NCBI GenBank assembly: GCA_041288095.1
Contig: JBGGMJ010000212.1
Span: 1-64,000 of the forward strand
Source of the DNA: Myxococcota bacterium
GTDB lineage: Bacteria; Myxococcota; XYA12-FULL-58-9; JALHOP01
DNA length: 64,000 nucleotides
Direction of reading: 5' to 3'
Below the pieces are notes generated by a model that was not told where the DNA came from, made no database searches, and saw only the letters and a program-made list of their open reading frames with translations. How positions within the stretch are numbered: the first letter of the stretch is position 1; each line of letters starts with the position of its first letter. This document shows positions 585 to 62,465 of this stretch, one piece after another. The position numbers and the translations under genes are program-made.

Positions 585-630
585 CTCGCAAGTGACGACG
601 AAACGACGCACGAAACGACTCGCAAGTGAC
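585..630. repeat. Nested direct repeats CTCGCAAGTGAC x2 flanking ACGAAACGAC x2
   Basis: 585-596 = 619-630; 598-607 = 610-619. Confidence 0.6.
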
Positions 631-2291
631 TAGCTGCGCGCCAACCCGCCAGTCCAGCTCTTGATGCCAACATGGAAGTGCATGCGGTGTCCGCCGATCT
701 GGATCATGTTGAGCCCAAGCCCGCGGCCGTAGGTCACGAGGTCGGCGTTCGACGAATAGATGAACGCGATGCTGCTGGCGAAGGGCCGCATCGCGAGTAG
801 CTCTTGCTTGCGATGCTCGATCCAATCGGCACGCGTCTGCCCTTCCGCTTCGTCGGGATGCGTGAAGTCGAGCTCCATGCCTACCTGGTGGCCCGAGTGA
901 AACGGATGCGGGCCGCCCTCGCGCTTGCTGTTGTCGTTGGCAAGTACCTCGGAGTCGGGTCGGATGGTTCGCAGATTGCGAGCGAAGTCGATGACGAATT
1001 GGCGGGCGCGCTGCGTGCCCCAGCTCGTCACCGACGAACCGGGCGTGTGGTAGTTGCGCAGACCAATCGTGGGATCGGACTGCAGCTCACCCCAGCGCGG
1101 GCCATCGACCAGATGAGGCGTCTCCTCGGGCGTCCCGAAGAGCGAGCGCGTCATCATCGCGCCCGAGACCAGGGTGGCCGAGCCACCGGCGCGCTCGTGC
1201 AGTCCGCGATAGGAGGCATTGTAGAGCTGCACCGCGGCCTGCGTCGTGGCGTCGTACGTGCGCAGCCGGCGCTCATCGATGAAGAACCCACGCGCCAGCA
1301 ACGCCCGCTGCACGCGCTCGACATCCTCGGGCCGGTTGCGATGACCGGTGGGGCGGAGGACCCAGCGTTTGCGCACCCTCACCAACTTCTGCTCGGGAGC
1401 GACGGTGCTCTCGACGGTGGTTTGAGCGGGTGTGGCCCGGAGCGCCGGGTCGGCTTTCGGGGCGCGCGCTGCATTCCGTAATAGCGTACGCACCGCGGCG
1501 CGATCCGCGGCCCGGCTCGAATGCGCTTGCTCGGACGTTAGTTTGCCGGCGCGGACAGCACGCTCGATGAAATCCCTGTAGCCCTCGAACGCGTCCGCGT
1601 CCCAAGCTCCGGCGGCTCCGCGCGCGCCGGTGGCGAAGCCGAGAGCGCGAAGGTCGCGGCGGACGGAGGTGGCGTCGGCGGTCGAGAGCTGACCGGGGCT
1701 GGCAATGCGGCTCCGCTCCAACGGAGTGGCGACGACGCCGGGGCCCGCGAGGCCCGGGCCCGCGACCGGGGGCTCCGGCTGTTCTCTGGTCGACTCGAGC
1801 TCGCGCCGCCGGTACTCGTCGCACGCGGCTTGCCAGAGCTGGAATTGATAGCGGAGGTCCGGCTCTTCGACGTTCGGCTGGTCGACGAAGCGTCGTGCCC
1901 AGTCGGCATCGATGCCGGCCGCTTCGAGCTCGGCGGCGCGCCGCGTCTTCTGAGCCTCGGCGCGGTTGACGCCGGGTGGGATCCCCTCGATGTCGATGCC
2001 GTCGAGGAAGCGGTGCATCTCGGCGCGAAGCTCGCGGCAGGCGGCGCTACCGCAGGCCATGCGCGGCGCGGCGGCCGGACGCGCCACCGCGGCGGCTAGT
2101 GGGCTTTGGACCTCGACCCTGGTGGGGGTTGGCCGTGGCGGCTCGACGTGGTCGACGCCCGTGTTGAACGGCGAGCCGACGTGCGAGCCGACGTCGGTAC
2201 CCACCCCGCCGAGCGGATCCAGGTGCAGCGCCGCGCTATCGCGCGTCGTTCTTGGACTCGTAATGTCGAGAATGGGGTCGGCCAAAGACAC
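630..2291 (-). CDS. Peptidoglycan-binding domain(s) + MepA-like (LAS) murein endopeptidase, long N-terminal extension, no signal peptide
   Basis: DVERVQRALLARGF...YDATTQAAVQLYN (PG-binding-like); GGPHPFHSGHQVGMELDF and HRMHFHV zinc motifs; GGGAGG RBS before GTG. Confidence 0.75.
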   Translation of the reverse strand: MSLADPILDITSPRTTRDSAALHLDPLGGVGTDVGSHVGSPFNTGVDHVEPPRPTPTRVEVQSPLAAAVARPAAAPRMACGSAACRELRAEMHRFLDGIDIEGIPPGVNRAEAQKTRRAAELEAAGIDADWARRFVDQPNVEEPDLRYQFQLWQAACDEYRRRELESTREQPEPPVAGPGLAGPGVVATPLERSRIASPGQLSTADATSVRRDLRALGFATGARGAAGAWDADAFEGYRDFIERAVRAGKLTSEQAHSSRAADRAAVRTLLRNAARAPKADPALRATPAQTTVESTVAPEQKLVRVRKRWVLRPTGHRNRPEDVERVQRALLARGFFIDERRLRTYDATTQAAVQLYNASYRGLHERAGGSATLVSGAMMTRSLFGTPEETPHLVDGPRWGELQSDPTIGLRNYHTPGSSVTSWGTQRARQFVIDFARNLRTIRPDSEVLANDNSKREGGPHPFHSGHQVGMELDFTHPDEAEGQTRADWIEHRKQELLAMRPFASSIAFIYSSNADLVTYGRGLGLNMIQIGGHRMHFHVGIKSWTGGLARS

Positions 2292-2309
2292 GCCTCCCGA
2301 GAGGGAGAC

Positions 2310-2337
2310 TCATCGGCCGGAAGGCGCCTCGAGTTGC
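2310..2337 (-). promoter_or_regulatory. sigma28-like promoter GCAAC-N15-GCCGATGA
   Basis: Minus strand, 18 nt before the GTG at 2291; its TGA is the stop codon of the upstream HAD gene. Confidence 0.7.
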
Positions 2338-3212
2338 GTGCGACGTTTCTCCAGTAGTTCCGCGAGCTCCTGGGTCTCGACCCAGCGGGCCCCGTTGAAC
2401 ATGAACAGAGTCATGGTCCGGCACATGGCCTCGAGGTCCGCGCCAGCGTCCGCCATTTGCTCGATCAGCATGGGGAAGATCGCTGGGCCACGGCCGGTGC
2501 AGATGGAGAATTCGATGCCGTTGTCGAGCAGCCGCAGCAACAGAGCCATGGCATCGCCGTCGATGCCCTCACCGTGCATGGTCAGCGTGCCGTCGAAGTC
2601 GAACATCAGCGCCCGCGTCGTAGGCCGCCGTCCGGCCGCGCGGGCCGCCAAGATGTCGTCGACGATGCCGTTCGCGATCTCGACCGTGCCAGCGGCGAAG
2701 CGACCGCGCCCTCGGTTATCGACCTGCGGACAGGCCGGCTCGTCTTTGCCGACGTTGTACGAGTTTGGCCCGACGAGGTGTCTGTCGTTGCCCTCGGGAC
2801 CGGCCTTATCACCGAACTTCGCGATGGCGGCGGCCGGCACGGCGAGATGCGCTGCGTATTCGACCAGCGCGTGCCCCTTGTCGACGTTGCCCTCGCCGAT
2901 GAGCACCGCTCCGCCGGCGTCACAGACGTTGACGCCTAGGGCGGCAAGCTTGCCTTGGAGGTGCGCCAGGAGCCCCGTCTTGCCCTCCGAGCCGGGCGGG
3001 ATGAGGAAGCTGTACTGGAACACCCGCTCGGGATGCCGGCTCGAGCCGAAAGCCTCGCGCAACAGCCCTGGGCGTTCGGACTCGCGGTGGATGATCTTGG
3101 TGTCGAGCCAAGGATACTGGCCGGCCGCCGATTGGACGGCGCCCACCACCGCGTCGCACTGCTCGGGAGACAGCGCATGGCGGATAGCTCGGGCTTGGGC
3201 GTCGACGCGCAT
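2310..3212 (-). CDS. Circularly permuted HAD (Cof/PMM-like, IIB) phosphatase
   Basis: Motifs III/IV (VDKGHAL, FGDKAGPEGND) precede motifs I/II (LMFDFDGTLT, ICTGRG, FNGA). Confidence 0.75.
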   Translation of the reverse strand: MRVDAQARAIRHALSPEQCDAVVGAVQSAAGQYPWLDTKIIHRESERPGLLREAFGSSRHPERVFQYSFLIPPGSEGKTGLLAHLQGKLAALGVNVCDAGGAVLIGEGNVDKGHALVEYAAHLAVPAAAIAKFGDKAGPEGNDRHLVGPNSYNVGKDEPACPQVDNRGRGRFAAGTVEIANGIVDDILAARAAGRRPTTRALMFDFDGTLTMHGEGIDGDAMALLLRLLDNGIEFSICTGRGPAIFPMLIEQMADAGADLEAMCRTMTLFMFNGARWVETQELAELLEKRRTQLEAPSGR

Positions 3213-3221
3213 CGTGCCCGA

Positions 3222-3249
3222 ATATCGGCTGGTTGGCCGCGTCGGGTGC
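3222..3249 (-). promoter_or_regulatory. sigma28-like promoter GCACC-N15-GCCGATAT
   Basis: -10 box ends 9 nt before ATG 3212; no RBS. Confidence 0.6.
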
Positions 3250-3258: not shown

Positions 3259-4602
3259 TCAGGGAATGGTGAGGCTGTCGACGTGCATGTTGCCGGGCGC
3301 AGCTATGCCGGCGAACGACTGGGCGAAGACGATGACCGCGACCGAGCTCAGGTCGAAGCCGACAGCCATGCTTGCGACCGTCGAGAAGGTGTCGCAGGCG
3401 CCGCCCGCCGTTTCCCATGAGAGCGTGCCGCCGCTCTCGCGGAAGCGCCAGCAGCGGTGCTGGCTCGCGTTGTAAGGGATGTCCGCCAGCACGTTCGAGC
3501 CATTCTGTGCCACCAGCGCGATCAGTCTGTTATTACGGACAAGAAAGAACGCCTCATTGGTCCCGCTCAAGACCCGCAGGACGCTCTCCGTCGAGGTGCT
3601 GGGCGCGAGGACCTGGGTGACGCGAGCCGTGAGCGAACGGTTACGCAGATCGTAGCTGTTGCTCGAGTAGAGGCCGGCGCCACCCGCGACCATGGGCGCC
3701 GGCGACAGCACGATGTCCCCGGCCAATTCGGCGAGCGTCGAGCCGCCGGAGGTGAAGCTGCGATCCCAGAGGGGCCCGATGACGCCGTCATTGAAGTCGT
3801 CGCCGAGCCCGTCGATGGGACAGTTCGAGAGCGCTCCGGCCCCCGGCCCATTGAAATTGTCGACGCGGGCCTGCCCAGGCGACGGCGCCTCCCCACCATC
3901 GGCAACGAGCGCGATGTGCGCGAGGTCGGCCGGGAAGGTGAGTGAAAATGTCGCGAGCTGGTTCCAAGTCGCGCCGTCGGCGCTGACCTCGGCGGCGCCG
4001 TTCTGGGCGTCGAAGACCAACCGCCACCAACGGTGCGCGTCCGCGTCATACGGGACGCTCGTCAGCGCGGTGTAGTCGCCCGCAAAGGTGCCTTGCTCGA
4101 CGACGAGCGAACCCTGGCTTTGGCGCAGGTTCAGATACCCAACGCCATAGCGGATGAGACTCAGCATGAAAAACGCGGTGGTCGTGGTATCGACCATCTC
4201 GACGACCTCGAACGTGACTTGGCCGCCGGCCACCGCGAGCGCCTCGGCCGAGACGTAGCCGGCCGAGCCGTTACCGCCGGTGGGCATCAGGTTGAGCACG
4301 CCGCCGGTCTCGGTGATGACGGCGCTCGTCGCTTGCGGCGCCCAGCCGGGCCCGCGCACCGGATCATCGAAATCGTCGTTGAGACTCGTGAGCGACCCGC
4401 ACGCCGTGCCGCAGCCCTCGTCGACCAGGCCGTCGCAGTCATCGTCCGTCCCGTTGCCGCAGGTCTCACCGGCGAGACAGGGGTCGGCCTCGAGCGCGAG
4501 AGATGTGCTCTCGAAGCCACTACGGCTCATGCACCCCGCGAGGTGTGCGGCCGCTAACACGACGATCGCCGTCAGGTGTCCCGCTGGGCTGCGGGTAAAC
4601 AC
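3259..4602 (-). CDS. Lipoprotein with myxobacterial Cys/Asp metal-binding motif and two tandem beta-sandwich repeats
   Basis: Lipobox LAGC; ETCGNGTDDDCDGLVDEGC; duplicated DDFDD..GPGW / PYDADAHRWWR vs DDFND..GPLW / PYNASQHRCWR. Confidence 0.75.
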   Translation of the reverse strand: MFTRSPAGHLTAIVVLAAAHLAGCMSRSGFESTSLALEADPCLAGETCGNGTDDDCDGLVDEGCGTACGSLTSLNDDFDDPVRGPGWAPQATSAVITETGGVLNLMPTGGNGSAGYVSAEALAVAGGQVTFEVVEMVDTTTTAFFMLSLIRYGVGYLNLRQSQGSLVVEQGTFAGDYTALTSVPYDADAHRWWRLVFDAQNGAAEVSADGATWNQLATFSLTFPADLAHIALVADGGEAPSPGQARVDNFNGPGAGALSNCPIDGLGDDFNDGVIGPLWDRSFTSGGSTLAELAGDIVLSPAPMVAGGAGLYSSNSYDLRNRSLTARVTQVLAPSTSTESVLRVLSGTNEAFFLVRNNRLIALVAQNGSNVLADIPYNASQHRCWRFRESGGTLSWETAGGACDTFSTVASMAVGFDLSSVAVIVFAQSFAGIAAPGNMHVDSLTIP

Positions 4603-4627
4603 AACTTTCCTCCTCGCCGTCCGATAT
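4601..4627 (+). promoter_or_regulatory. sigma28-like promoter ACAACTTT-N11-TCCGATAT
   Basis: Same geometry as TAAAGTTT-N11-GCCGATAA; upstream of the S8-M14 pair. Confidence 0.6.
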
Positions 4628-4689: not shown

Positions 4690-6654
4690 ATGAAAATGTC
4701 TGGTCCCGACCGCTCCGGAATCCCCGGAGGCGGCAGCAGTGTTCCGTCTTCCACGCTCGTCCACCTCAACGGCGTGTCCGTCGATCCGCTCAAGGTCTCG
4801 GGCAAGCCAGGCTTCGCGCCGCCAGACGCTGCTTCGGGTCAGCACATCGTCCAGCTCACTCAGGCCACCGCGCCCGAATTCAAGGCGCAGATCGAGAAGG
4901 CCGGCGGCCGCATCGTCGGCTACTTCCCGGACAACGCCTACCTCGTGCGCATGCGCGGCGACACCGTCAAAGCGGTGAAGGCCCTGCCCTTCGTTCGCGC
5001 CACCATGGCCATGCCGCCCCAGTACAAGCTGGACGGCGAGTTCCGCGCCCGCATCGGCATCGTGCCGGACACCAATCCGAAGTCGGTCGTCATCTCGACC
5101 ACCGGCAACCAGTCGCTCGCCAAGGTCGCGACCGACATGCGGCAGCTGGGCTTCACCAACATCCGCATGGGCCACGACACCGTCGTCGCCGAGGGTACGC
5201 GCGGCATGATCGACCAGGCGTCGCTGCACGACGACGTCCTCTGGATCGGTCCGAACACCGAGGCCGGTTTCGACCTCGACAACATCCGCAAGCTCGGTGG
5301 CGCGGACTACGTCTCCGGCCTTGCCAACACCAGCGGCTTCCAGGGCCAGGGCATGAAGGCGCACATTCTCGAAGGCATCGAGAAGGGTCACCCCGGCTTC
5401 GCGGCTAGCGAGCACCGCCAAGCTCCCATCGTCGTCGGCGGCGCCGGCGCCGAAGAGAGTTCGAGCCACGGCACCAACACCGCCGGCGAAGTCTTCGGCA
5501 ACGGCGCTGGCAAGCCCGAGTGGAAGGGCAGCGTCCCGCATGCCCAGGCGCTCTACACCAACGCCAGCTACGTCATGAACGCTCCTCCCGGCAGCCGCGA
5601 AGCGAACAGCCGCTGGGCCGTCACCAAGGAGCTCGTCGAGAAGCACGACATCGACGGCCAGACGGCGTCGTGGGGCTACGCCACCAACTCGAAGTACGAC
5701 GAGCGCTCGCGCGAGCTCGACGGCATCATGGCGGACTTCGACCTCGTGGTGACGCAGAGCCAGAGCAACACCGGCAGTCCGCAATCGCGGCCGCAGGCAT
5801 GGGCGAAGAACGTCATCCCGGTGACGGCCCTCTATCACTTCGACAACGCGAAGTTCGAGGATGATCGCTGGAACGGCGGCTCGAGCACGCGCGACGGCGC
5901 CGACAAGCGCATTGGCCGCACGCTGCGCGGCTTCTACGACAAGATCGGCACCACCGCCGTCGGCGGTAAGTACACGGCCGAGTTCGGCGGCACCTCCGGG
6001 GCGACGCCGATGACGCAGGGTCTCCTGCAGTCGATGATGCAGATGTACAAGGAAGGCGTCTTCCAGAGCGCCCTCTTGAACCCGTCGTCGTTCCAGATGG
6101 GCAAGCGGGCTCGCGCCGCGACGACGGCCGCCTTGGCCATCGCCACCGCGCGTCAGATGCCGTTCGCCAGCCGCACCGCGGAGAACAACCGCTACCAGCA
6201 GGGCTGGGGCATGGTCGACCTGCAGAAGGTCTACGACATGCGCGGCAAGATGCTCATCGTCAACGAGGACATCGCCTTGAAGCCGCAACAGACCGCGAGC
6301 TTCACGGTCGACGTCGCCGAGGGCGAGCCCGAGCTGAAGATCTCGATGGTCTACAAGGACCCGCCGGGTCTGGTCTCCGCCGGCAAGGCGCAGGTCAACG
6401 ACGTCGACATCAAGGTCACCGCGCCGGACGGCACTGTGTACTGGGGTAACAACGGCCTCCTCGACGGCATGTACAGCAAGTCGGGCGGTGAGCCGGATCG
6501 TCTCGACACCGTCGAGAACGTCTTCGTCGAGAAGCCCAAGGCCGGTCAGTGGAAGATCGAAGTCATCGCGACCGCGATCAACCAGCCCATCAAGGAAGGC
6601 GGCGCTCTCGAAGTGCCCTTCGCCCTGGTCGCCGCCGGCGGACGCAAGGTCTAA
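4690..6654 (+). CDS. S8 subtilisin-like serine protease with C-terminal PPC/KP-43-like domain, no signal peptide
   Basis: SHGTNTAG (His), GGTSGATP (Ser), QQGWGMVDL, C-terminal NDVDIKVTAPDG...DTVENV. Confidence 0.9.
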   Translation: MKMSGPDRSGIPGGGSSVPSSTLVHLNGVSVDPLKVSGKPGFAPPDAASGQHIVQLTQATAPEFKAQIEKAGGRIVGYFPDNAYLVRMRGDTVKAVKALPFVRATMAMPPQYKLDGEFRARIGIVPDTNPKSVVISTTGNQSLAKVATDMRQLGFTNIRMGHDTVVAEGTRGMIDQASLHDDVLWIGPNTEAGFDLDNIRKLGGADYVSGLANTSGFQGQGMKAHILEGIEKGHPGFAASEHRQAPIVVGGAGAEESSSHGTNTAGEVFGNGAGKPEWKGSVPHAQALYTNASYVMNAPPGSREANSRWAVTKELVEKHDIDGQTASWGYATNSKYDERSRELDGIMADFDLVVTQSQSNTGSPQSRPQAWAKNVIPVTALYHFDNAKFEDDRWNGGSSTRDGADKRIGRTLRGFYDKIGTTAVGGKYTAEFGGTSGATPMTQGLLQSMMQMYKEGVFQSALLNPSSFQMGKRARAATTAALAIATARQMPFASRTAENNRYQQGWGMVDLQKVYDMRGKMLIVNEDIALKPQQTASFTVDVAEGEPELKISMVYKDPPGLVSAGKAQVNDVDIKVTAPDGTVYWGNNGLLDGMYSKSGGEPDRLDTVENVFVEKPKAGQWKIEVIATAINQPIKEGGALEVPFALVAAGGRKV

Positions 6655-6659: not shown

Positions 6660-8042
6660 ATGAAAGTCACTCGGCAGGAAGACAAGCGCACAGTGTCCGC
6701 TTCGGCGGATACAACCAAGAAGTCCACCGCAGCGAAGGTGGTCAAGGGATTCGGATCGTTGGATGCCGTCGCGCTCGCGGCGGCCAAGAACGACTTCGTG
6801 CCCACCGACCTCCGGCGCGCTCCTCCCGCCGAGCTGCACAAGCGGCTGAACGTCGTCGCCCTGCGCGCGGCGTTGAAAGCAGAATCTGGTGTCGACGCGC
6901 CATCCATCGACCCGCGTTACTTCGACGTGACGCGGGCGGTGGAGCGCATCGACCAAATGGTCGCGAAGTATCCCGCCATCGCGAGCAAGGTCGATTTGTC
7001 GGCGCTTCCGGGCGCGGCCAAGACGCACGAAGGGCGCTCGATTTTCGCGCTCAAGCTCAGCGGCAAGCCGGTCGCGGGTGGCAAGCCCGCGGTGGTCATC
7101 GTGGCGCAGCACCACGCGCGCGAGCTCAACGCCGGTTACATCGCGCAGGCCGCGATGGAGCGCATTGCCTCGGGCTACGGCAAGGACCCCGCCCTCACCA
7201 AGCTCCTCGACGAGCGTGAGGTCTACGTCGTGCCGATCGTCAACGTCGACGGCGTCAACACGGTCTTCAGCGAGGAGCGCTACTGGCGCAAGAACAGGTC
7301 GACCAACAGCGACGGATCACGCGGTGTCGACATCAACCGCAACTATCCCTTTCTCTTCGGCGCTTGTGGCACCTCGGAGCAGGGCTCGTCGGAGGTCTAC
7401 AAGGGTCCGTCGGCGGCTAGCGAGCCGGAAGTCCGCACCATGATGGCGGTGCAACGCGAGCTACGGCCCGAGCTCTACATCGACTTCCACAACCACGGCA
7501 ACGAGGTGCTCGAGCTCTATCCACCGTGCGCTAAAGTGGACAGCGCCGTGAAAGCGATGGACGCGCACTATATCGAGCGCTTGGCCAAGCCCATGGGCTT
7601 CCACTCGCGCGCCCCTTCGGGCTCGGGCGAAGCGCCGCACTGGCACTGGAGCGAAGGTAGCCTCTCCTACCTCATCGAGGTCGGTAGCGCCTTCCAGCCG
7701 CGCGTCGAGGAGACCATCGAGGACGAGAAGAAGGTGTGGCAGGGATTGTCCGCCGCGCTCACCACCTGGGCTCCCGCCGCCCGTGGTCGCATCAGCAGCG
7801 CCGATGGCACGCCCATCCACGCCAAGCTCACGGTGAAGCAGCCGCTCTTCAACCACGGAGAGCACTCGGCGTCGCGCGCCTCCGACGGCCGCTTCAGCCT
7901 GTGGCTGCCAAAGGGCACCTGGGACGTCGAGGTGAGCGCCAAAGGCCACGTGTCCAAGGTGGTTCAAGTGAAGGTCGAGGCCTACGATCAAGCCATGACG
8001 CTCGACGTCAAGCTCGACCGAGCCGCCGACAAGGTCGCCTGA
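6660..8042 (+). CDS. M14 zinc carboxypeptidase (CPT-like) with C-terminal carboxypeptidase regulatory-like domain, no signal peptide
   Basis: HHARE, WRKNR, GVDINRNY, DFHNHG, IEVG; start re-called at ATG 6660 after AAGGAA. Confidence 0.9.
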   Translation: MKVTRQEDKRTVSASADTTKKSTAAKVVKGFGSLDAVALAAAKNDFVPTDLRRAPPAELHKRLNVVALRAALKAESGVDAPSIDPRYFDVTRAVERIDQMVAKYPAIASKVDLSALPGAAKTHEGRSIFALKLSGKPVAGGKPAVVIVAQHHARELNAGYIAQAAMERIASGYGKDPALTKLLDEREVYVVPIVNVDGVNTVFSEERYWRKNRSTNSDGSRGVDINRNYPFLFGACGTSEQGSSEVYKGPSAASEPEVRTMMAVQRELRPELYIDFHNHGNEVLELYPPCAKVDSAVKAMDAHYIERLAKPMGFHSRAPSGSGEAPHWHWSEGSLSYLIEVGSAFQPRVEETIEDEKKVWQGLSAALTTWAPAARGRISSADGTPIHAKLTVKQPLFNHGEHSASRASDGRFSLWLPKGTWDVEVSAKGHVSKVVQVKVEAYDQAMTLDVKLDRAADKVA

Positions 8043-8077: not shown

Positions 8078-8104
8078 GCAAGGTAGGCTCAGCGTTGCCG
8101 ATAC
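8078..8104 (+). promoter_or_regulatory. sigma28-like promoter GCAAG-N14-GCCGATAC
   Basis: -10 box ends 8 nt before in-frame GTG 8113. Confidence 0.7.
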
Positions 8105-8112
8105 GCTTCGCC

Positions 8113-9024
8113 GTGTCGGCCTTGCCTGGTCTCCCGGCTCCTCAGCGGTCCCCGTCCGCGGTGCACCTCGCCGAGGCGCGCCCGGCCGAAACCAAGCTCG
8201 CGTACCTGCCGCCGGCCAAACTAGACCTCCTCGAGGACCGCGCGGCCCACGACAAAGAGGTCACCGCCTCGCGTCGCCAGGCCTTTCGTCGCTCGGCGGT
8301 CGTTTGGCTAGGCGCCATGGTGGCGAGCGGGCTCGCCGGCTACGGCTTGGGTCTCGCCTTCGGCGGCATCTCCGGCTGGCTCAACGCCACCGGCGTCATC
8401 AACGACCCCAAGTTCCACGAAACGCTGAAGCGGATCTTCGACCCGACGTTGTTCGCGGTAGTCGGCATGTTCACGGCAGGCGTCGCCTCGTTCTTCAACG
8501 AGAACATCACTGGTCCGTTGCGGCCGTTGACCACGCGTTGGGTGATGAGCCGCAGCCCCGAGAAGGTGAAGCTCGACCCGGAGGTGCAGCGCGAGCTCAT
8601 TCATAGCTGGCAGGCCGAGCAGACCGTGGATGCGCGCGTCCTCGCCGGCCGCTGGAACGTCACCGAGATGTGCATGGCGTGGAAGCTCACCTTCCGCGAG
8701 GTAGCGCGCGCCATGCGCGCCGGCGACATCGAGGGCGCGGCGGCCTTCCTCGGCGGCGACCTCATCTCCTCAGAGACGCTGTGGTTCTGGGTCGTGCCGT
8801 CGAGCGACGCCATCTTCGATCTGGTGCGCAAGCCGATCTCGCCCTACCTGCGGAACGTGAGCGAAGCCGATCTGGCGCGTCTGAAGGAAGCGACCCTCGC
8901 CTATGTCCGTCAAAACAGACGAGAGATCGCGGACCCGGCGCGCCTCGGCATCGACGGCGCTTTGAGCGAATACTACGCGCCGGTCATCGATCAGCTTTTG
9001 AAGCGGGCACCCCGTGCGCCTTGA
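8113..9024 (+). CDS. Hypothetical protein with hydrophobic hairpin (one copy of an unknown domain)
   Basis: Two hydrophobic segments; FDPTLFAVVG and RAGDIEGAAAFLG shared with the next gene; start re-called from 8095. Confidence 0.7.
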   Translation: MSALPGLPAPQRSPSAVHLAEARPAETKLAYLPPAKLDLLEDRAAHDKEVTASRRQAFRRSAVVWLGAMVASGLAGYGLGLAFGGISGWLNATGVINDPKFHETLKRIFDPTLFAVVGMFTAGVASFFNENITGPLRPLTTRWVMSRSPEKVKLDPEVQRELIHSWQAEQTVDARVLAGRWNVTEMCMAWKLTFREVARAMRAGDIEGAAAFLGGDLISSETLWFWVVPSSDAIFDLVRKPISPYLRNVSEADLARLKEATLAYVRQNRREIADPARLGIDGALSEYYAPVIDQLLKRAPRAP

Positions 9025-12897: not shown

Positions 12898-12943
12898 GGA
12901 CGCTGACATCGCCGGTCCCACGACTCGGGTCAAACGCCGCTGA

Positions 12944-14824: not shown

Positions 14825-14852
14825 TCATCGGCAGAAGTCGGTCCCTAGTTGT
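14825..14852 (-). promoter_or_regulatory. sigma28-like promoter ACAAC-N15-GCCGATGA
   Basis: -10 box ends 6 nt before GTG 14818. Confidence 0.7.
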
Positions 14853-25658: not shown

Positions 25659-25661
25659 GCC

Positions 25662-41343: not shown

Positions 41344-41391
41344 CGCACAGCAGCGTGTGCCGTGAGGGCACAGCGTCTCCGAGCGTGTGTC

Positions 41392-41399
41392 GCCGATAA
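41392..41399 (+). promoter_or_regulatory. sigma28-like -10 box GCCGATAA (no clear -35)
   Basis: Perfect -10, 36 nt before ATG 41436. Confidence 0.5.
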
Positions 41400-42419: not shown

Positions 42420-42446
42420 TCATCGGCGCATGGGCCCGCCTGGTGC
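42420..42446 (-). promoter_or_regulatory. sigma28-like promoter GCACC-N14-GCCGATGA
   Basis: Left member of a divergent pair. Confidence 0.65.
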
Positions 42447-42502: not shown

Positions 42503-42530
42503 GCGACGAACCGGCAACGTTTGCCGATGA
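42503..42530 (+). promoter_or_regulatory. sigma28-like promoter GCGAC-N15-GCCGATGA
   Basis: Right member of a divergent pair, upstream of the four-gene operon. Confidence 0.65.
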
Positions 42531-48827: not shown

Positions 48828-48830
48828 CCG

Positions 48831-52409: not shown

Positions 52410-53576
52410 ATGACTTCGTCCCCAGTTCGGCTCGATACCGTCGAGCGGCTGGCCGTCCATGCACCTCCCACAGCGCGCGCCCACTTGCCGGCTCTCACAG
52501 CGGCGCGCTTCATCGCCGCGTTCCAGGTGCTGCTCTTCCACTGCACCAACTGGTCGACGTGGTTGCCTTCGCCGGTGCGAACGTTCGCCTCGACCGGCTA
52601 CATCGCCGTCGCCTTCTTCTTCATCCTCTCCGGTTTCATCCTGACCTACACCTACTGGTCACCGATGCGCGCCGGCCTGCGCCTCGGGGTGTTCTACAAG
52701 GCGCGCTTCGCCCGCATCTACCCGATGTACATGGCCGCCCTGCTGCTGGCGTTGCCGTTTTACGCGAAAGCGGTCATGCACGGGCACGGTGGCGCGGCGC
52801 GCGGCATCCGCGACGCGTTGCTCACCGTGAGTCTCCTACAGGCACACGTACCGAGCGCGGCGCTCACCTGGAATCCGCCGGCGTGGTCCTTGTCGACGGA
52901 AGCGTTCTTCTATTTCTGCTTCCCGTTCGTCTTGCCGGTGCTGCTGCGCGGCTCGATGCTGCGCGCCTGGCTCACCGCTGTCGTCGCGGTCATCGTCGCG
53001 GTGGCCCTGCCGATAGCGTACCTCGCGATCAATCCCGACGGCATCGGCAGCCCCGATTTCGAGGCGAGCGCGACCTGGCTCAACCTGCTGCGCTATCACC
53101 CGCTCGCGCGTTTCGCCGAGTTCCTCTTGGGCATGTGCGTGGCTCGCGCCTATCTCGACCAACCATCGCTGCGCACACCACGCGCGGCCATGCTGCTGAC
53201 GGCAACCTCACTCGCGACGCTGGCTGGGCTGCTCGCTTTCGCGGACCATATTCCCTACGTACTCTTGCACAACGGACTACTCGCGCCGGCGTTCGCCGCC
53301 CTGGTGCTCGGGCTCGCGACGACCACCGCCATCTCGAAGCCTTTACAACGTCGTTGGCTCGTCACGCTCGGCGAGGCCAGCTACGGGCTATACATCCTGC
53401 ACATCCCGCTCTTCATGGCCGCGGGCGCGGTGGCTCGCAAGATCACCGAAGACGGCGACAAGAGCGGCTGGTTCACGCTGGCATTCATCGCCTTCGCGAT
53501 AGCGATCTCGGCCGTCGCCTACCGCATGGTCGAAGTGCCGGCGCGCCGCTTTCTGCTCAAGCGTTCCGTCAGGTAG
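52410..53576 (+). CDS. Acyltransferase family 3 (OafA-like) membrane protein
   Basis: RFIAA..VLLFH, FFFILSGF, RFARIYP, WSLSTEAFFY, GEASYGLYILH. Confidence 0.92.
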   Translation: MTSSPVRLDTVERLAVHAPPTARAHLPALTAARFIAAFQVLLFHCTNWSTWLPSPVRTFASTGYIAVAFFFILSGFILTYTYWSPMRAGLRLGVFYKARFARIYPMYMAALLLALPFYAKAVMHGHGGAARGIRDALLTVSLLQAHVPSAALTWNPPAWSLSTEAFFYFCFPFVLPVLLRGSMLRAWLTAVVAVIVAVALPIAYLAINPDGIGSPDFEASATWLNLLRYHPLARFAEFLLGMCVARAYLDQPSLRTPRAAMLLTATSLATLAGLLAFADHIPYVLLHNGLLAPAFAALVLGLATTTAISKPLQRRWLVTLGEASYGLYILHIPLFMAAGAVARKITEDGDKSGWFTLAFIAFAIAISAVAYRMVEVPARRFLLKRSVR

Positions 53577-55209
53577 GCTGGGCGTCGCGCTCGCGAACGC
53601 GCACCCGATGCACGGCGTCTGCTAGTGCTCGTGCGTCTTCCTCGCGGATCCGCGCGGCGAAAACGGCGCGCAGACGAACGACGCTGATGGCGTTGTAGCC
53701 GCCCTGGCCGTTGCTCAAATACGTGCGCAAGACCGCCAGTTGCTCGTCACGCGTAAGCTCGGAGAGGCGACGTAGCCTGCCGTCGGCGCTCAAGAGGGCT
53801 TGGTAGGCGGCCGGGTGCTGCTCGCGCAGGTCGTGAGTAAGGAAGAGCTCATCGGCCGCGACCGCATAGCCTATGCGCTCGAACAGACGGTCCCCGGCGT
53901 AAGCACCGTCGCCGAGTATCGCACGCACCTGCTCGGTCATGTACCCCAGCGCGAGGCGAGGGTTGACCATCTGGTCCAAGGCGATGGCGCTCGCCGAAAA
54001 AGGCTGCGATTGCGTCGTGAGGTCCAGCATCGCGAAGCGCCAAGAAGGCGAATAGCGCTGCACCGCGAGCACGGACTCCAGAGCCAGCTCGCCTTCGCGG
54101 ACATTGCGGCGCTGTCCCAGGGAAGCCGCATAGAAGCCGCTCTGGGTCCGAACGATGTCACGGAAGTGCGCGTAGGCGACGTGTTGATAGACCTCGATCG
54201 GATAATCACCGGCGGCGCGCTCACGTAGGAAGCGAGCGTGCGTCGCGGGCGCCGATGCGACCTGCGCGAGTAACCGATCATAGGCGGTGTCCAGGTCGGC
54301 GCGGTGCGCTTCGCGCAGGCCACGCAGCTGAATCGCGTCGGTGTTTGTGAGCGGATTGACGCGGCCTTCCGTGCCTGGCCGAACACCGAACTTCCAGGTC
54401 TCGGCGAACCGCAGCACCCGCTGGCGCAGGAAGACATCGTCGATGACGACGCCATCGGGCCCCATCGCGAAGTGGCCAGGGAACTCACGCTGGAAGAATC
54501 CCGCGTAGTAGCTGTCGACGCCGTTCATCACCGGCGTCGTGTAGATCCAGCGAACGTCGCGCGGCGGCAGATTGAAGAACGACACGCGGTCGCTCTCACT
54601 TTGCTCGCGGGCGGTGGCTTGCAGATCGAACGTGTGGGGCGAGTTCGGGAAGATGATTGGCCGCACTGTCATGCCGTGGCGCGTTCGCAGGTCGCCCAAG
54701 AACTGGGCGTCCGAGAGAGCCGCCGCTAAAGCGTACACACCCGCCTCATCGGTAACGCGCTCCGGGACCGGAGTCGCCGCGCTGCCGTTGCCGAAGTGGT
54801 GGCGAAACGCGTCCAGCCTCTCCTGCAGCGCCGGGTAGTAGGCGCCCTGCTCGTAGGGCCGCGAGACGTAGTGGTCGTAGACCATGAAAACGAGGTCGCG
54901 ATAGGCGCGCAGCGGCGAGCCGCGCTCGTTCATACGGGCGTTGTCAGCGGCCCAGGGGCGGTAGTCCAGCAGATAGGCCGGGCTGCGCAGGAGCTCGGGA
55001 TCCATGCTCAGCGCCGGGGCGCTCTCGCCCGGGCCCCCCGGCACGGCAAGCTCGAGCTGCGGGTTCGGCACCCCCTGCACTCTGAGGATGTGCGGTCTCG
55101 AGCTCATGCCGGTGCGAGGTGCAAGGACGGGTGCCGAGCGCGCTGGCGCGGCATATTCAGGCGCGACAGGGGCGGCGCGGCCAACGGCTTCGATTGCAGG
55201 AACTGTCAT
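53569..55209 (-). CDS. Hypothetical soluble protein with Ala/Pro-rich N-terminal extension
   Basis: Long ORF with plausible composition; start re-called at MTVPAIEAVG. Confidence 0.7.
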   Translation of the reverse strand: MTVPAIEAVGRAAPVAPEYAAPARSAPVLAPRTGMSSRPHILRVQGVPNPQLELAVPGGPGESAPALSMDPELLRSPAYLLDYRPWAADNARMNERGSPLRAYRDLVFMVYDHYVSRPYEQGAYYPALQERLDAFRHHFGNGSAATPVPERVTDEAGVYALAAALSDAQFLGDLRTRHGMTVRPIIFPNSPHTFDLQATAREQSESDRVSFFNLPPRDVRWIYTTPVMNGVDSYYAGFFQREFPGHFAMGPDGVVIDDVFLRQRVLRFAETWKFGVRPGTEGRVNPLTNTDAIQLRGLREAHRADLDTAYDRLLAQVASAPATHARFLRERAAGDYPIEVYQHVAYAHFRDIVRTQSGFYAASLGQRRNVREGELALESVLAVQRYSPSWRFAMLDLTTQSQPFSASAIALDQMVNPRLALGYMTEQVRAILGDGAYAGDRLFERIGYAVAADELFLTHDLREQHPAAYQALLSADGRLRRLSELTRDEQLAVLRTYLSNGQGGYNAISVVRLRAVFAARIREEDARALADAVHRVRVRERDAQPT

Positions 55210-55256: not shown

Positions 55257-55283
55257 TCATCGGCCATCCGTGGCCCGGGTTGC
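55257..55283 (-). promoter_or_regulatory. sigma28-like promoter GCAAC-N14-GCCGATGA
   Basis: 47 nt before ATG 55209. Confidence 0.75.
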
Positions 55284-61125: not shown

Positions 61126-61161
61126 TCTCCCGCCTTTTTACCCTCAAACCGGGGAGCAGGC

Positions 61162-61809
61162 CTATGACCGCGTGAACACCACGTGGGTCGCCTTTTCGGT
61201 GGCAGCGTGCTCGCTCACGCGATAGCCGAGCTTCGGCAGATCGATACCTCGCAAGAGGTGCTCACCCTTGCCCAAGACGACCGGTGACACGACGAGGTGG
61301 AGCTCATCGATGGCGCCCGCCTCCAGGTAATGGCGAACGGTCGCGACTCCTCCACCGACGCGAATGTCTTTCGCGCCCGCCGCCTCCTTCGCTCGCCGCA
61401 TGGCCTCATCCGGTCCGCCCGTCACGAAGTGGAACGTCGTGCCACCCTTCATCTCGAACGACTTGCGCGCATGGTGCGTGAGCACGAAGACCGGCACGTG
61501 GTACGGCGGTTCCTCGCCCCACCAACCTTGCCACGACTCATCGGGCCACGGTCCGCGCACGGGGCCGAACATGTTGCGGCCGAGGATCCAAGCGCCGAGG
61601 CCCGCCATGCTGCGCTTCGCAAAGTCGTCGTCGACCCCGGTCGTTCCCTCGTCGCGCCCACCAAACATGGTGTGGAAGGTCCGGGTCGTGACCATCCAGC
61701 CATGGAGCTGTTCGCCGCGCTCTCCCATTGGCTTGTCCAAGGTCTGGCTCGAGCCGGCGCCATAGCCGTCGAGCGAGATGGTGAAAGCGTTCACACGTAC
61801 TTTGCTCAT
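61162..61809 (-). CDS. Dihydrofolate reductase / RibD C-terminal family protein
   Basis: ISLDGY, ILGRNMF, VFVLTH, GGGVAT, IDELHL. Confidence 0.92.
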   Translation of the reverse strand: MSKVRVNAFTISLDGYGAGSSQTLDKPMGERGEQLHGWMVTTRTFHTMFGGRDEGTTGVDDDFAKRSMAGLGAWILGRNMFGPVRGPWPDESWQGWWGEEPPYHVPVFVLTHHARKSFEMKGGTTFHFVTGGPDEAMRRAKEAAGAKDIRVGGGVATVRHYLEAGAIDELHLVVSPVVLGKGEHLLRGIDLPKLGYRVSEHAATEKATHVVFTRS

Positions 61810-61848
61810 GCGGACTCCTCGTAGTGCCAGCGTGGCTCAGGGCCCCGC

Positions 61849-61875
61849 GAAACGGGCCCCCTTACCCCGCGATAA
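61849..61875 (+). promoter_or_regulatory. sigma28-like promoter GAAAC-N14-CGCGATAA
   Basis: Degenerate -10, 8 nt before ATG 61884. Confidence 0.5.
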
Positions 61876-61883
61876 CCGGTTCC

Positions 61884-62465
61884 ATGAACCAGGCAATCGC
61901 GACTCCAACCGGCCAGGGTATCGCCCTCGCGGGGCTAGCGACCGAACATCTGCCAGCGACCGTACCGCCGGGTCCCGGCGAGCCGCTTCCTCCGCCAAAA
62001 CCTTCGTGGCTGCAAGACGTCATGGCGAGCGACGCCGGCGTCGGCCTCAAGCGTTGGATGAACGGCATTGGCGCGGGCCTCGGGTACATCGCACCGGCCG
62101 CCATGGTCCTCGGTAGCGCCTACTACACGAGCCACATGCCCGGCAGCTACAGCGACGTCGCCACGGCAGCCGCGGTCGTAAGCATCGGTGGCAGTGTCTT
62201 ACAGGCCGTCTATCAGGGTTGGGACGGCGACGGCGCCATCGATACCTATCGCAAAGCGCAACACCCGAACCCGCGTTGGGCGAGCTTCCGCGATGTCATG
62301 GGCTACTTCGCGCTCCCGGCGATTGTCGCGAGCACCCTCGTCGGCGCCTTCGTCAGTCCAGGCCTAGGCATCGCCGCGGGTACCATCACGGCGCTCGGCG
62401 GCATGAGTCTCGCCCTGACGACGCACTTCTACAGGATAGAGAAGTACGGCAGCCGCGACCTCTAG
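61884..62465 (+). CDS. Hypothetical protein with Pro-rich N-terminus and 3-4 Gly/Ala-rich hydrophobic segments
   Basis: Start re-called at MNQAIATP. Confidence 0.65.
   Translation: MNQAIATPTGQGIALAGLATEHLPATVPPGPGEPLPPPKPSWLQDVMASDAGVGLKRWMNGIGAGLGYIAPAAMVLGSAYYTSHMPGSYSDVATAAAVVSIGGSVLQAVYQGWDGDGAIDTYRKAQHPNPRWASFRDVMGYFALPAIVASTLVGAFVSPGLGIAAGTITALGGMSLALTTHFYRIEKYGSRDL

What the first reader, a model, noticed from the sequence alone, without database searches (positions are those of the whole stretch)
630..62465. The motif-marked genes look like a type III/flagellar-exported lytic effector arsenal
Seen: the motif-driven genes and their operon partners lack Sec, Tat and lipobox signals. 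Most start with disordered S/T/P/G/A-rich extensions, e.g. MKMSGPDRSGIPGGGSSVPSS, MKVTRQEDKRTVSASADTTKKS, MTISGVPSELRPPSG, MTSTTDSTRRGTGVRGTPSG, MQPIDRIQSTGVQVAQAAP and MTVPAIEAVGRAAPVAP. Their cargo could attack wall (MepA-like), membrane (PLD, alpha/beta hydrolase, hairpin proteins) and protein (S8, M14, M64, M13). I found no such motif before the signal-peptide genes. Internal control: the GSDH at 55309 has a signal and no motif, while those at 43999 and 46764 have no signal and sit in a motif-led operon. Established: type III signals are uncleaved disordered N-termini; Campylobacter exports sigma28-coexpressed non-flagellar proteins through the flagellum; Myxococcus uses an atypical T3SS in prey lysis. 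Inference: a predation secretome coupled to a flagellar-type export gate. No apparatus gene is in this window.
Basis: partly seen in the sequence, partly recalled or inferred. Interest (0 to 1): 0.9.

Follow-up and report, generated by a model that had tools for sequence, protein, structure and literature searches.

The report
Signal-less lytic enzymes behind sigma-28 promoters
An uncultured, predator-like bacterium drives about twenty genes from one shared flagellar-type promoter; most encode wall-, membrane- and protein-degrading enzymes that have lost their usual export signal, so they probably leave the cell by a route not yet identified.

Summary
The observation largely holds. Fourteen transcription units (20 genes) carry a conserved promoter, GCAAC-N15/16-GCCGAT(A/G)A, with the same layout as the Bdellovibrio attack-phase FliA promoter. 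It is about 4-fold over-represented, sits upstream in sense orientation, and is kept at orthologous sites in three related MAGs. None of the 14 first genes has a Sec, Tat or lipoprotein signal, against 15 of 28 other genes (p = 5e-4). No signal-bearing gene has the motif.

For three families (S8, M14, M64) the nearest homologs outside this lineage carry classical signal peptides. Here a short, conserved hydrophilic leader takes that place.

Three other partners are membrane proteins.

The type III or flagellar export idea stays untested. No apparatus gene lies in the window or in the relatives' flanks, and the genome could not be scanned. Crude tests did not set the leaders apart from cytoplasmic N-termini. 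Bdellovibrio M64 homologs combine the same promoter type with a Sec signal.

Best reading: a sigma-28-type regulon of prey-directed enzymes retargeted to a Sec-independent route, with a T3S-type gate as the leading but unproven candidate.

The parts
2311..2337 (-). promoter-like site GCAAC-N16-CCGATG, 25 nt before the start at 2291
   Evidence: 0 mismatches
630..2291 (-). 553-aa protein with no signal; weak PG_binding_1 and M74/LAS-type endopeptidase match (HxxxxxxD at 468, HxH at 538)
   Evidence: only 14 relatives among 1.8e9 representatives
3223..3249 (-). promoter-like site GCACC-N16-CCGATA, 16 nt before the start at 3212
2310..3212 (-). 300-aa protein with no signal; HAD-like stretch at residues 203-277
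4601..4626 (+). promoter-like site ACAAC-N15-CCGATA, 69 nt before the start at 4690
4690..6654 (+). S8 subtilase (654 aa). A 22-aa hydrophilic leader sits where homologs have a signal peptide; triad D195/H260/S436
6660..8042 (+). M14 carboxypeptidase with CarboxypepD_reg domain, no signal; operon partner of the S8 gene
8078..8103 (+). promoter-like site GCAAG-N15-CCGATA
8110..9024 (+). protein with a two-segment membrane hairpin. The start is placed at GTG 8110 because the promoter lies inside the longest ORF
   Evidence: paralog of the next gene
9053..10834 (+). paralogous hairpin membrane protein (start 9014 or 9053); operon partner
10754..10780 (+). promoter-like site GCAAC-N16-CCGATA, 19 nt before the start at 10794
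10794..12080 (+). 428-aa protein of unknown family, no signal
14826..14852 (-). promoter-like site ACAAC-N16-CCGATG, 13 nt before the start at 14818 (leaderless-like); conserved in L002
12944..14818 (-). PLD-family protein (624 aa) with a Pro-rich N-terminus and no signal
12055..12909 (-). 284-aa lipoprotein with two LEA_2 domains, 34 nt downstream of the PLD gene. Likely co-transcribed; the exception to the rule and a candidate immunity protein
34470..34496 (+). promoter-like site GCGAC-N16-CCGATA, 16 nt before the start at 34507; conserved in L002 and L003
34507..35916 (+). 469-aa protein with no signal; GFSAG nucleophile-elbow motif, with only weak family support for an alpha/beta hydrolase
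35897..35922 (+). promoter-like site GCAAC-N15-CCGATA, 37 nt before the start at 35954; conserved in L001-L003
35954..37618 (+). M64 metallopeptidase (HELGH) with a conserved hydrophilic leader in place of the signal peptide
38490..38516 (-). promoter-like site GCAAC-N16-CGGATA, 15 nt before the start at 38480; conserved in L001 and L002
37620..38480 (-). 286-aa protein with three C-terminal membrane segments
39069..39094 (+). variant promoter-like site GAAAC-N15-CCGACG (2 mismatches), conserved in L001 and L002
39118..41343 (+). M13 (PepO-type) metallopeptidase with a ~100-aa His-rich, non-hydrophobic N-terminal region and no signal
41373..41398 (+). promoter-like site with a perfect GCCGATAA -10 and a poor -35; the -10 is conserved in L002
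41436..41822 (+). 128-aa basic protein (pI 10.1), unknown family, no signal
42421..42446 (-). promoter-like site GCACC-N15-CCGATG; conserved in L001-L003
41827..42366 (-). 179-aa protein, unknown family, no signal
42503..42529 (+). promoter-like site GCGAC-N16-CCGATG, 99 nt before the start at 42623; site and leader conserved in L001-L003
42623..43999 (+). 458-aa protein with no signal; TolB/PD40-like propeller, as a lead only
43999..45339 (+). GSDH-family propeller with no signal; domain starts at residue 111
45371..46762 (+). paralog of 42623-43999 (64% identity), no signal
46764..48827 (+). tyrosinase-domain plus GSDH fusion, no signal
55258..55283 (-). promoter-like site GCAAC-N15-CCGATG, 54 nt before the start at 55209
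53569..55209 (-). 546-aa protein, unknown family, no signal

Best explanation
The window comes from an uncultured, 67% G+C bacterium whose nearest public relatives are MAGs labelled Myxococcota or Bdellovibrionales.

Fourteen transcription units (20 genes) are read from a sigma-28/FliA-type promoter, GCAAC-N15/16-GCCGAT(A/G)A. This is the layout that marks the attack-phase regulon of Bdellovibrio.

The products are mostly hydrolases and propeller enzymes of families that normally leave the cytoplasm through Sec. In this lineage the signal peptide has been swapped for a short, conserved, hydrophilic leader. The set is best read as a co-regulated arsenal of prey-directed enzymes that leave the cytoplasm by a Sec/Tat-independent route.

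Shown: the promoter class, its conservation, the absence of signals, and the signal-to-leader swap.
Inferred: export itself, prey as the target, and the machine. A type III-type gate (flagellar or needle-less) is the leading candidate but is unproven.
For: Promoter:
- It is over-represented and correctly placed. Scores per gene are bimodal.
- The -10 is GCCGAT(A/G), with G at -1 in 13 of 14 sites.
- Sites are conserved at orthologous positions in L001-L003 while the flanking bases drift.
- Bdellovibrio attack-phase promoters read TTAAG-N16-CCGATA in 92 of 140 cases and drive proteases and surface proteins (PMC3627812, passages).

Start codons are sound:
- Promoters lie 13-25 nt before six of them.
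- Starts and leaders are conserved in relatives.
- Differences in the first 20 codons fall 44/42/89 on codon positions 1/2/3.
- No hydrophobic stretch follows within ~120 residues.

Signal swap:
- S8: the own clade (P0126-P0132 and P0135, 57-100% identity) is signal-less. 99 of all 120 hits score as signal-bearing, and the signal ends where the window's leader ends.
- M14: 0 of 9 clade members carry a signal against 100 of the other 111.
- M64: the signal-less window clade (8 rows, support 99) is nested among 13 signal-bearing rows. A second signal-less clade lies elsewhere in the tree.

Other points:
- Catalytic motifs are intact.
- G+C and GC3 match the rest of the window, so the genes are native.
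- 0 of 14 first genes against 15 of 28 other genes carry signals.
Against: - No secretion apparatus, sigma-28 gene or chaperone lies in the window or in the flanks of L001-L003.
- Export is inferred, not shown.
- The M13 protein's best curated match is lactococcal PepO, which by recall lacks a signal peptide.
- A large signal-less M64 clade in other phyla has no such promoter. Signal-less members can therefore exist without it.
- Three motif-linked proteins are membrane proteins that Sec/YidC could insert, and one partner is a lipoprotein.
- The leaders are only modestly richer in S/T/P and poorer in Leu than cytoplasmic N-termini. A charge-hydropathy test does not separate them: 5 of 16 against 3 of 9.
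- Fourteen promoters in 64 kb suggest a broad life-stage programme rather than a dedicated effector regulon.
- The -35 (GCAAC) differs from the textbook TAAA, and an ECF-type sigma factor is not excluded.
Confidence: 0.55

Rival explanations
1. One reading: the leaders are type III signals, and the enzymes leave through a flagellar or needle-less T3S-type export gate that is co-expressed through sigma-28.
For: - The N-termini are uncleaved-looking and non-hydrophobic, and they replace Sec signals.
- The first ~20 residues are at least as conserved as the catalytic body: M64 and PLD leaders are 90% identical against 81-88% overall.
- The promoter is sigma-28-type.
- By established flagellar biology (recalled), sigma-28 becomes active when the gate accepts late substrates.
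- Campylobacter jejuni exports non-flagellar proteins this way, with an N-terminal signal (PMC5223770 and PMC2764114, abstracts in the search listing).
- The Myxococcus needle-less T3SS* is needed for prey lysis, with local peptidoglycan degradation, and its effectors are unknown (PMC12075869 and PMC12428579, passages).
- Some uncultured Myxococcota encode flagella and a partial T3SS (preprint 10.1101/2021.07.06.451402, passages).
Against: - No apparatus or chaperone gene was seen.
- The genome is unscanned.
- 0 of 17 leaders meet the recalled Pseudomonas syringae effector rules, and disorder was not shown.
- Bdellovibrio sp. MAG loci L062 and L064 pair the same promoter type with a Sec signal on the M64 homolog.
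- Cofactor enzymes such as tyrosinase and GSDH are unusual type III cargo.
- Co-occurrence of Kil and T3SS* is reported as restricted to one myxobacterial suborder (PMC12428579).
Confidence: 0.25
2. The enzymes are cargo of another contact-dependent injector (T6SS, extracellular contractile system, Tad/Kil-like pilus, or an undescribed machine) that loads proteins in the cytoplasm.
For: - Loss of Sec signals is what any cytoplasm-loaded system requires.
- A PLD followed by a lipoprotein resembles, by recall, Tle5-Tli5 effector-immunity pairs of T6SS.
- Peptidoglycan endopeptidase-like and GxSxG proteins are typical interbacterial effector activities.
Against: - There is no VgrG, Hcp, PAAR, MIX/FIX or contractile-sheath family in the 20 motif-linked proteins checked, the adjacent thioesterase checked with them, or their neighbours.
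- Only one candidate immunity gene was found among 14 units.
- The conserved N-terminal leaders have no known role in T6SS loading.
Confidence: 0.15
3. There is no dedicated exporter. The enzymes accumulate in the cytoplasm during one life stage and are released by lysis of a fraction of cells or in vesicles.
For: - All signals are absent, and there is no apparatus nearby.
- The high promoter density suggests a global stage-specific programme.
- By recall, Myxococcus spore protein S lacks a signal peptide and reaches spores after cell lysis.
Against: - It does not explain why the first ~20 residues are conserved.
- It does not explain why signal peptides were replaced rather than simply kept.
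- Active proteases, a PLD and a wall endopeptidase stored in the cytoplasm would need inhibitors, and none was recognised.
Confidence: 0.1
4. The proteins are not exported. They act inside the cell in a sigma-28-controlled stage, for example turnover of the cell's own proteins, lipids and wall precursors during a non-growing phase.
For: - Absence of signals is the default for cytoplasmic proteins.
- PepO-type M13 and some M14 enzymes are cytoplasmic in other bacteria (recalled; for the PepO match).
- A large signal-less M64 clade exists in other phyla.
Against: - Outside homologs of the S8, M14 and nearest M64 proteins are signal-bearing.
- The domains are typical of extracytoplasmic proteins: PPC, CarboxypepD_reg, PG_binding_1, GSDH and a TolB-like propeller.
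- The signal-bearing GSDH paralog in the same window shows the family is exported here too.
Confidence: 0.15
5. Annotation artefact: in a high-G+C genome the longest ORF overshoots the true start, and real signal peptides lie further downstream.
For: Long ORF overshoot is real here. The stop-to-stop frames of several signal-bearing genes (for example 30897-34592) and of 8095 run upstream of the true start.
Against: - No hydrophobic segment occurs within the first ~120 residues of the soluble motif-led proteins.
- Promoters sit directly before the called starts.
- Starts, ribosome-binding-like sequences and leaders are conserved in relatives.
- In the S8 and M64 alignments the conserved mature part begins right after the leader.
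Confidence: 0.02

Closest known systems
FliA (sigma-28) attack-phase regulon of Bdellovibrio bacteriovorus
   Same: The promoter is bipartite with the same spacing and the same -10 (TTAAG-N16-CCGATA there, GCAAC-N15/16-GCCGATA/G here). It drives many non-flagellar genes, including proteases (PMC3627812). M64 homologs are common in Bdellovibrionota, and two of them carry this promoter type.
   Different: In Bdellovibrio, secretion of the tested reporter needed a Sec signal (PMC12622784, passages), and the M64 homologs keep their signal. Here none of the 14 motif-led first genes carries a signal. The -35 differs, and neither a fliA gene nor flagellar genes have been seen for this lineage.
HrpL/hrp-box regulons of type III effectors in plant-associated Pseudomonas and Erwinia (recalled, not checked in a call)
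   Same: Scattered effector genes share a bipartite alternative-sigma promoter (GGAACC-N15/16-CCAC type) and lack Sec signals.
   Different: The sigma family and box sequence differ. There the apparatus and the secretion are demonstrated; here neither is.
Sigma-28-dependent non-flagellar proteins exported by the flagellar T3SS in Campylobacter jejuni (and, by recall, Yersinia phospholipase YplA)
   Same: Non-flagellar proteins with N-terminal export information leave through the flagellar gate (PMC5223770 and PMC2764114, abstracts in the search listing). YplA gives a precedent for a lipolytic enzyme.
   Different: Those cases involve a handful of proteins. Here there are 14 units in 64 kb, many encoding large multi-domain enzymes, and flagella are not shown for this organism.
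Kil (Tad-like) plus needle-less T3SS* predation machinery of Myxococcus xanthus and Bradymonabacteria
   Same: Contact-dependent prey lysis needs a T3S-type gate whose effectors are unknown. Lysis involves local peptidoglycan degradation (PMC12075869, PMC12428579 and PMC11509652, passages). The window encodes signal-less wall-, lipid- and protein-degrading enzymes.
   Different: No kil or T3SS* gene is in the window. No sigma-28-type promoter is reported for that system in the passages read. The lineage is not a cultured myxobacterium.
T6SS phospholipase D effectors with periplasmic immunity lipoproteins (Tle5/Tli5; recalled)
   Same: A signal-less PLD-family protein is followed directly by a lipoprotein gene.
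   Different: There is no T6SS gene or adaptor nearby. The lipoprotein is a LEA_2 protein with no shown link to PLD, and binding was not tested because the job was lost.

Membership tests
sigma-28/FliA-dependent promoters | -10 element GCCGATAA | tested here: met
   GCCGAT(A/G): C, G and A invariant in 14 of 14 sites, G at -1 in 13 of 14, A at +6 in 8 of 14
sigma-28/FliA-dependent promoters | -35 element (TAAA, or TTAAG in Bdellovibrio) 15-16 nt upstream | tested here: inconclusive
   The spacing of 15-16 nt is met. The sequence is GCAAC or a variant, sharing only the central A(A) with TTAAG. An ECF-type sigma is not excluded.
sigma-28/FliA-dependent promoters | placed upstream of genes in sense orientation, beyond chance, and conserved in relatives | tested here: met
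sigma-28/FliA-dependent promoters | a fliA-family sigma factor in the genome, and transcription starts just downstream of the -10 | not testable with these tools
   Only a 64-kb window and 58 kb of relatives' DNA were available; there are no transcript data.
type III (injectisome or flagellar) substrates | a T3S export apparatus encoded in the genome | not testable with these tools
   None in the window or in L001-L003.
type III (injectisome or flagellar) substrates | uncleaved, non-hydrophobic, disordered N-terminal signal | tested here: inconclusive
   Non-hydrophobic: yes. The composition shift is small. Charge-hydropathy gives 5 of 16 against 3 of 9 in controls. The structure job never finished.
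type III (injectisome or flagellar) substrates | small acidic chaperone genes beside effector genes (common, not universal) | tested here: not met
   The only small motif-linked protein (41436-41822) has pI 10.1. No chaperone family was found.
type III (injectisome or flagellar) substrates | secretion that depends on the apparatus | not testable with these tools
   This needs an experiment.
Sec/Tat/lipoprotein-exported proteins | N-terminal signal peptide, twin-arginine signal or lipobox | tested here: not met
   Absent in 19 of 20 motif-linked proteins, present in 15 of 28 others. Judged by heuristic, not SignalP.
T6SS effector-immunity modules | linkage to vgrG/hcp/PAAR or MIX/FIX markers | tested here: not met
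   No such family in Pfam or NCBIfam scans.
T6SS effector-immunity modules | adjacent immunity gene with an export signal | tested here: inconclusive
   Only the LEA_2 lipoprotein after the PLD gene qualifies, and binding is untested.
peptidase S8 | Asp/His/Ser triad and family profile | tested here: met
   D195, H260 and S436 are invariant in 40 sequences. The window protein is below the Pfam cut-off (17.4 against 21.8 bits), but most of its listed homologs carry PF00082.
peptidases M64, M13, M14 | family profile above cut-off and zinc-binding motif | tested here: met
   Pfam E-values 2e-35, 3e-116 and 3e-44; motifs HELGH, HEIGH with ENIGD, and HARE.
phospholipase D superfamily | two HKD motifs | tested here: inconclusive
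   Two PLDc_2 stretches, but only one strict HxKxxxxD, at residue 503.

The most novel reading that the evidence does not exclude
A whole lineage of uncultured predator-like Myxococcota/Bdellovibrionota has moved families of Sec-secreted hydrolases (S8, M14, M64 and others) onto a T3S-type export gate by swapping the signal peptide for a short conserved leader, and has put them under a sigma-28-type promoter. If so, these would be the first identified substrates of a predatory type III-like system (flagellar or needle-less), and the promoter plus leader would allow genome-wide discovery of the lytic arsenal.
Probability: 0.25. Interest if true: 0.85.

Novelty: new variant of a known kind. Interest (0 to 1): 0.62.

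Why it matters
Contact-dependent bacterial predators need a type III-like gate to lyse prey, but the passages I read name no effector.

This window offers a concrete, testable candidate set. The genes share one promoter. They are enzymes with obvious lytic potential. They are marked by a lineage-specific swap of the Sec signal for a conserved leader.

Even if the exporter is something else, repeated and independent loss of signal peptides in three protease families is a clear evolutionary signature of retargeting. It also extends the Bdellovibrio idea of sigma-28 as a life-stage master regulator to a high-G+C lineage.

In my four topical literature searches I found no paper describing signal-less hydrolases behind such promoters. 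Those searches cover only the held library.

Tried and rejected
Leads that gave nothing:
- Exact GCCGATAA alone is not significant: 3 sites against 0.85 expected, and 5 of 100 shuffles reach 3. CCGATR is too common in coding DNA. The bipartite pattern was needed.
- All-against-all BLAST of 19 motif-linked proteins found no shared N- or C-terminal module, only three paralog pairs.
- The NCBIfam scan of 20 proteins found no secretion-system, effector or chaperone family.
- PDB sequence searches for 34507, 10794 and 630 gave nothing usable.
- The Atlas gave only a sub-threshold TolB/PD40 lead for 42623 (0.86) and nothing for 53569.
- Pfam on the four N-terminal regions found no propeptide or other domain, so I do not call the S8 N-region an I9 propeptide.
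- Rfam and tRNA scans of the window found nothing.
- Folding the conserved 5' leader of the 42623 operon gave no covariation.
- The listing of cluster members gave no organism names.
- G+C and GC3 do not differ between motif genes and the rest.

Tests that did not discriminate:
- The recalled Pseudomonas syringae effector rules (0 of 17 motif-led against 0 of 9 controls).
- The recalled charge-hydropathy boundary.

Jobs without a result:
- The structure prediction of the S8 protein on alignment A2 had not finished at the last poll. No result, no verdict.
- The complex prediction of the PLD with the LEA_2 lipoprotein was accepted once, then lost on the remote machine. The queue was full on every other try. 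No verdict.

Caveat on the 80-locus signal call: the script is rough. At least L027, L031, L036, L054 and L069 were scored signal-less although a hydrophobic N-terminus is visible. L010 was probably scored signal-bearing through an over-extended start.

Full report
WHAT THE WINDOW IS
The window is 65-69% G+C throughout. I called genes by third-position G+C and annotated them with Pfam and NCBIfam.

The content looks like the Myxococcota/Bdellovibrionota radiation. It includes an FHA-sigma-54 activator, a Ser/Thr kinase, many acidic Cys-rich lipoproteins, and DUF1585/DUF1800-type proteins.

The window's S8 protein is recorded on a contig of 74,414 nt. The closest public relatives of the M64 locus are three MAG contigs, at 88, 83 and 81% protein identity:
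- L001, titled Myxococcota bacterium.
- L002, titled uncultured Bdellovibrionales, on a 1.29-Mb contig.
- L003, titled Myxococcota bacterium.

Gene order around the locus is largely shared with all three.

THE MOTIF
The finding does not spell out its motif. Reading 200 nt upstream of every gene and aligning the recurring CCGAT sites gives GCAAC-N15/16-GCCGAT(A/G)A.

- In 14 sites, C, G and A of the -10 are invariant, and G at -1 occurs 13 times.
- With at most one mismatch, the pattern occurs 23 times against 5.3 +/- 2.2 (max 10) in 100 Markov shuffles.
- Twelve of the 23 lie within 130 nt upstream, in sense, of a gene, although such positions make up 4.5% of the search space.
- Per gene, the best upstream score is bimodal. 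Fourteen genes score 0-2 mismatches and almost all the rest score 3-5.
- The one other gene at 2 mismatches, the aldo-keto reductase at 63670(-), lacks the CGAT core, and I did not count it.
- The two counted sites with 2 mismatches (M13 and 41436) are conserved in relatives.
- For M64, M13, PLD, 34507, 37620, 41436, 41827 and 42623, the sites are kept at the orthologous position in L001-L003 while neighbouring bases change.

The layout equals the Bdellovibrio attack-phase promoter. That promoter reads TTAAG-N16-CCGATA in 92 of 140 mapped promoters, is assigned to FliA, and drives proteases and surface proteins as well as flagellar genes (PMC3627812, passages).

The -35 differs from the textbook sequence, so an ECF-type sigma factor cannot be excluded.

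SIGNALS
I read the first 130 residues of every stop-to-stop frame together with all candidate starts. I scanned for membrane segments and rechecked unclear regions. SignalP was not available.

Of 48 genes, 16 have a Sec, lipoprotein or Tat signal:
- 0 of the 14 motif-led first genes.
- 1 of 6 downstream operon partners.
- 15 of 28 remaining genes.

Fisher's test gives p = 4.6e-4 both for 0/14 against 15/28 and for 1/20 against 15/28.

It lies at 12055-12909(-) and encodes a 284-aa lipoprotein with two LEA_2 domains (E 1.5e-21). Its GC3 is 0.85, and it starts 34 nt after the PLD stop. The overlapping plus-strand ORF 11977-12882 has GC3 0.65 and is spurious.

Three motif-linked proteins (8110-9024, 9053-10834, 37620-38480) have internal membrane segments. 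They may simply be inner-membrane proteins.

ARE THE STARTS RIGHT?
Yes, as far as sequence can tell.
- Six promoters end 13-25 nt before the called start, which leaves no room for a longer protein and suggests leaderless or near-leaderless mRNAs.
- Start codons, ribosome-binding-like sequences and the first residues are conserved in relatives.
- In 13 pairwise comparisons of the first 20 codons of seven genes, differences fall 44/42/89 on codon positions 1/2/3. The M13 pairs are inflated by an indel.
- The M64 and PLD leaders are 90% identical between genomes against 81-88% for the whole proteins.
- No hydrophobic stretch follows further in.

THE KEY COMPARISON: HOMOLOGS ELSEWHERE
S8 (4690):
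- The window's own clade (P0126-P0132 and P0135, 57-100% identity) starts with a hydrophilic leader.
- 99 of all 120 listed hits score as signal-bearing.
- The non-scoring hits outside the clade that I looked at were mostly records starting within the mature part.
- In alignment A2, the homologs' signal peptide ends exactly where the window's 22-residue leader ends and the shared region begins.
- The triad D195/H260/S436 is invariant.

M14 (6660):
- 0 of 9 clade members score as signal-bearing. One of them, P0268, is a partial record.
- 100 of the other 111 do.

M64 (35954):
- The clade P0002-P0008 is signal-less.
- The next relatives, Bdellovibrionales MAG proteins at 53-57% identity, have a classical signal directly before the conserved start.
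- I built a tree of 54 rows: the window plus 53 of the 120 hits (P0002-P0022 and every third hit from P0025, with those under 470 aa dropped).
- It nests the window clade (8 rows, support 99) inside a 22-row group (support 100). That group's other full-length members are signal-bearing.
- A second signal-less clade of 26 rows, from Eremiobacterota/Vulcanimicrobiota-type records, lies in the other half of the tree.
- The tree is unrooted, but two independent losses of the signal is the simplest reading.

Three unrelated families thus show the same lineage-specific swap.

WHAT THIS DOES AND DOES NOT SAY ABOUT TYPE III EXPORT
In favour:
- The leaders are N-terminal, non-hydrophobic and conserved.
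- The promoter is of the class that, in flagellated bacteria, fires when the flagellar gate takes late substrates (recalled).
- Campylobacter exports non-flagellar proteins that way (abstracts only).
- In Myxococcus a needle-less T3SS* is required for prey lysis, with local peptidoglycan degradation, and its effectors are unknown (passages).
- Bradymonabacteria also encode such a system (passages).
- Some uncultured Myxococcota encode flagella and a partial T3SS (preprint, passages).

Against, or missing:
- There is no apparatus, sigma or chaperone gene in the window or in the 58 kb of L001-L003.
- In the first 50 residues the leaders have S+T 14.6% against 10%, Pro 11.4% against 6.4%, and Leu 5.3% against 9.8% in nine cytoplasmic controls. 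This is a small shift.
- A charge-hydropathy test does not separate the two groups.
- Across 80 M64 loci, CCGATA within 160 nt upstream occurs only in L001-L003 (signal-less) and in two Bdellovibrio sp. MAG loci, L062 and L064. In L064 it sits in a CTAAC-N16-CCGATA arrangement. The proteins of both loci have a Sec signal.
- The promoter class therefore does not in itself mean Sec-independent export.
- In Bdellovibrio, reporter secretion needed a Sec signal (PMC12622784, passages).
- Fourteen promoters in 64 kb also fit a broad life-stage programme better than a narrow effector regulon.

OTHER ROUTES
- T6SS or another injector. This fits the loss of signals and the PLD-lipoprotein pair, but no marker gene is present.
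- Release by lysis or vesicles. This would not explain the conserved leaders.
- A purely cytoplasmic role. This is hard to square with signal-bearing outside homologs and with domains such as PG_binding_1, PPC, CarboxypepD_reg, GSDH and a TolB-like propeller. It cannot be excluded for some members, such as the PepO-type M13.

VERDICT
It has one exception and some over-stated annotations. The mechanism offered is plausible and interesting but untested.

My estimates:
- About 0.55 that this is a sigma-28-type regulon of enzymes exported by a Sec-independent route.
- About 0.25 that the route is a type III-type gate.

It is a new variant of known kinds: the Bdellovibrio FliA regulon, and promoter-marked effector regulons.

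Two jobs gave no result: the fold of the S8 protein and the PLD/LEA_2 complex.

Noticed in passing
window 12055-12909 (-): An unlisted 284-aa lipoprotein gene with two LEA_2 domains lies 34 nt downstream of the signal-less PLD gene. The overlapping + ORF 11977-12882 is spurious (GC3 0.65). It may be an immunity partner of the PLD.
   Followed up: partly
window starts at 14818-, 38480-, 34507+, 3212-, 10794+, 8110+: The first base of the -10 hexamer lies only 12-19 nt before the start codon. These transcripts would be leaderless or nearly so. The arrangement is kept in L002 for the PLD, 34507 and 37620 orthologs.
   Followed up: partly
L062 and L064 (Bdellovibrio sp. MAGs), about 28 nt upstream of the M64 homolog start at 9809: A CCGATA box precedes an M64 gene that has a classical signal peptide. 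In L064 it fits a FliA-type CTAAC-N16-CCGATA pattern. Among the 80 loci, only these two loci and L001-L003 have CCGATA within 160 nt upstream.
   Followed up: partly
proteins P0025-P0120; loci L006-L015, L018, L052: A large second clade of M64 peptidases in Eremiobacterota/Vulcanimicrobiota-type records also lacks signal peptides. Many begin with a Cys/His-rich N-terminus (MC..HHHH). Their location and function are unexplained.
   Followed up: no
window 30897-34436 (-); L002 15803-20053 (+): The 1212-aa Cys-rich lipoprotein of the window is absent from the syntenic regions of L001-L003. L002 instead has a 1416-aa Ig/LamG/EGF lipoprotein at another point of the locus. Large surface lipoproteins seem to be the variable part of this region.
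   Followed up: partly
window 42530-42622 (+) and orthologous leaders in L001-L003: The ~95-nt 5' leader of the 42623 operon has conserved blocks, including a palindromic CCGCTAGCGG just after the -10. There is no Rfam match and no covariation in four sequences.
   Followed up: partly
window 28317-28784 (+), 25494-26099 (+), 26149-26472 (-): Three small genes are easily missed among overlapping ORFs: a Tat-signal Cys-rich helical protein, a lipoprotein-like ORF, and a small N-terminally anchored protein. None has the motif.
   Followed up: partly
whole window: Sec lipoproteins here are strongly acidic (pI 4.2-4.9). The motif-led proteins are mostly neutral to basic (pI up to 10.2).
   Followed up: no
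window 8110-9024 and 9053-10834 (+): Two paralogous proteins carry Gly/Ala-rich two-segment hydrophobic hairpins after a hydrophilic N-terminus. The moderate hydrophobicity recalls membrane proteins delivered by secretion systems, but ordinary inner-membrane insertion is just as possible.
   Followed up: no
window 1-630: An open-ended ORF lies on the minus strand (1-168). It is followed by about 460 nt without convincing coding potential, downstream of the gene at 630-2291.
   Followed up: no
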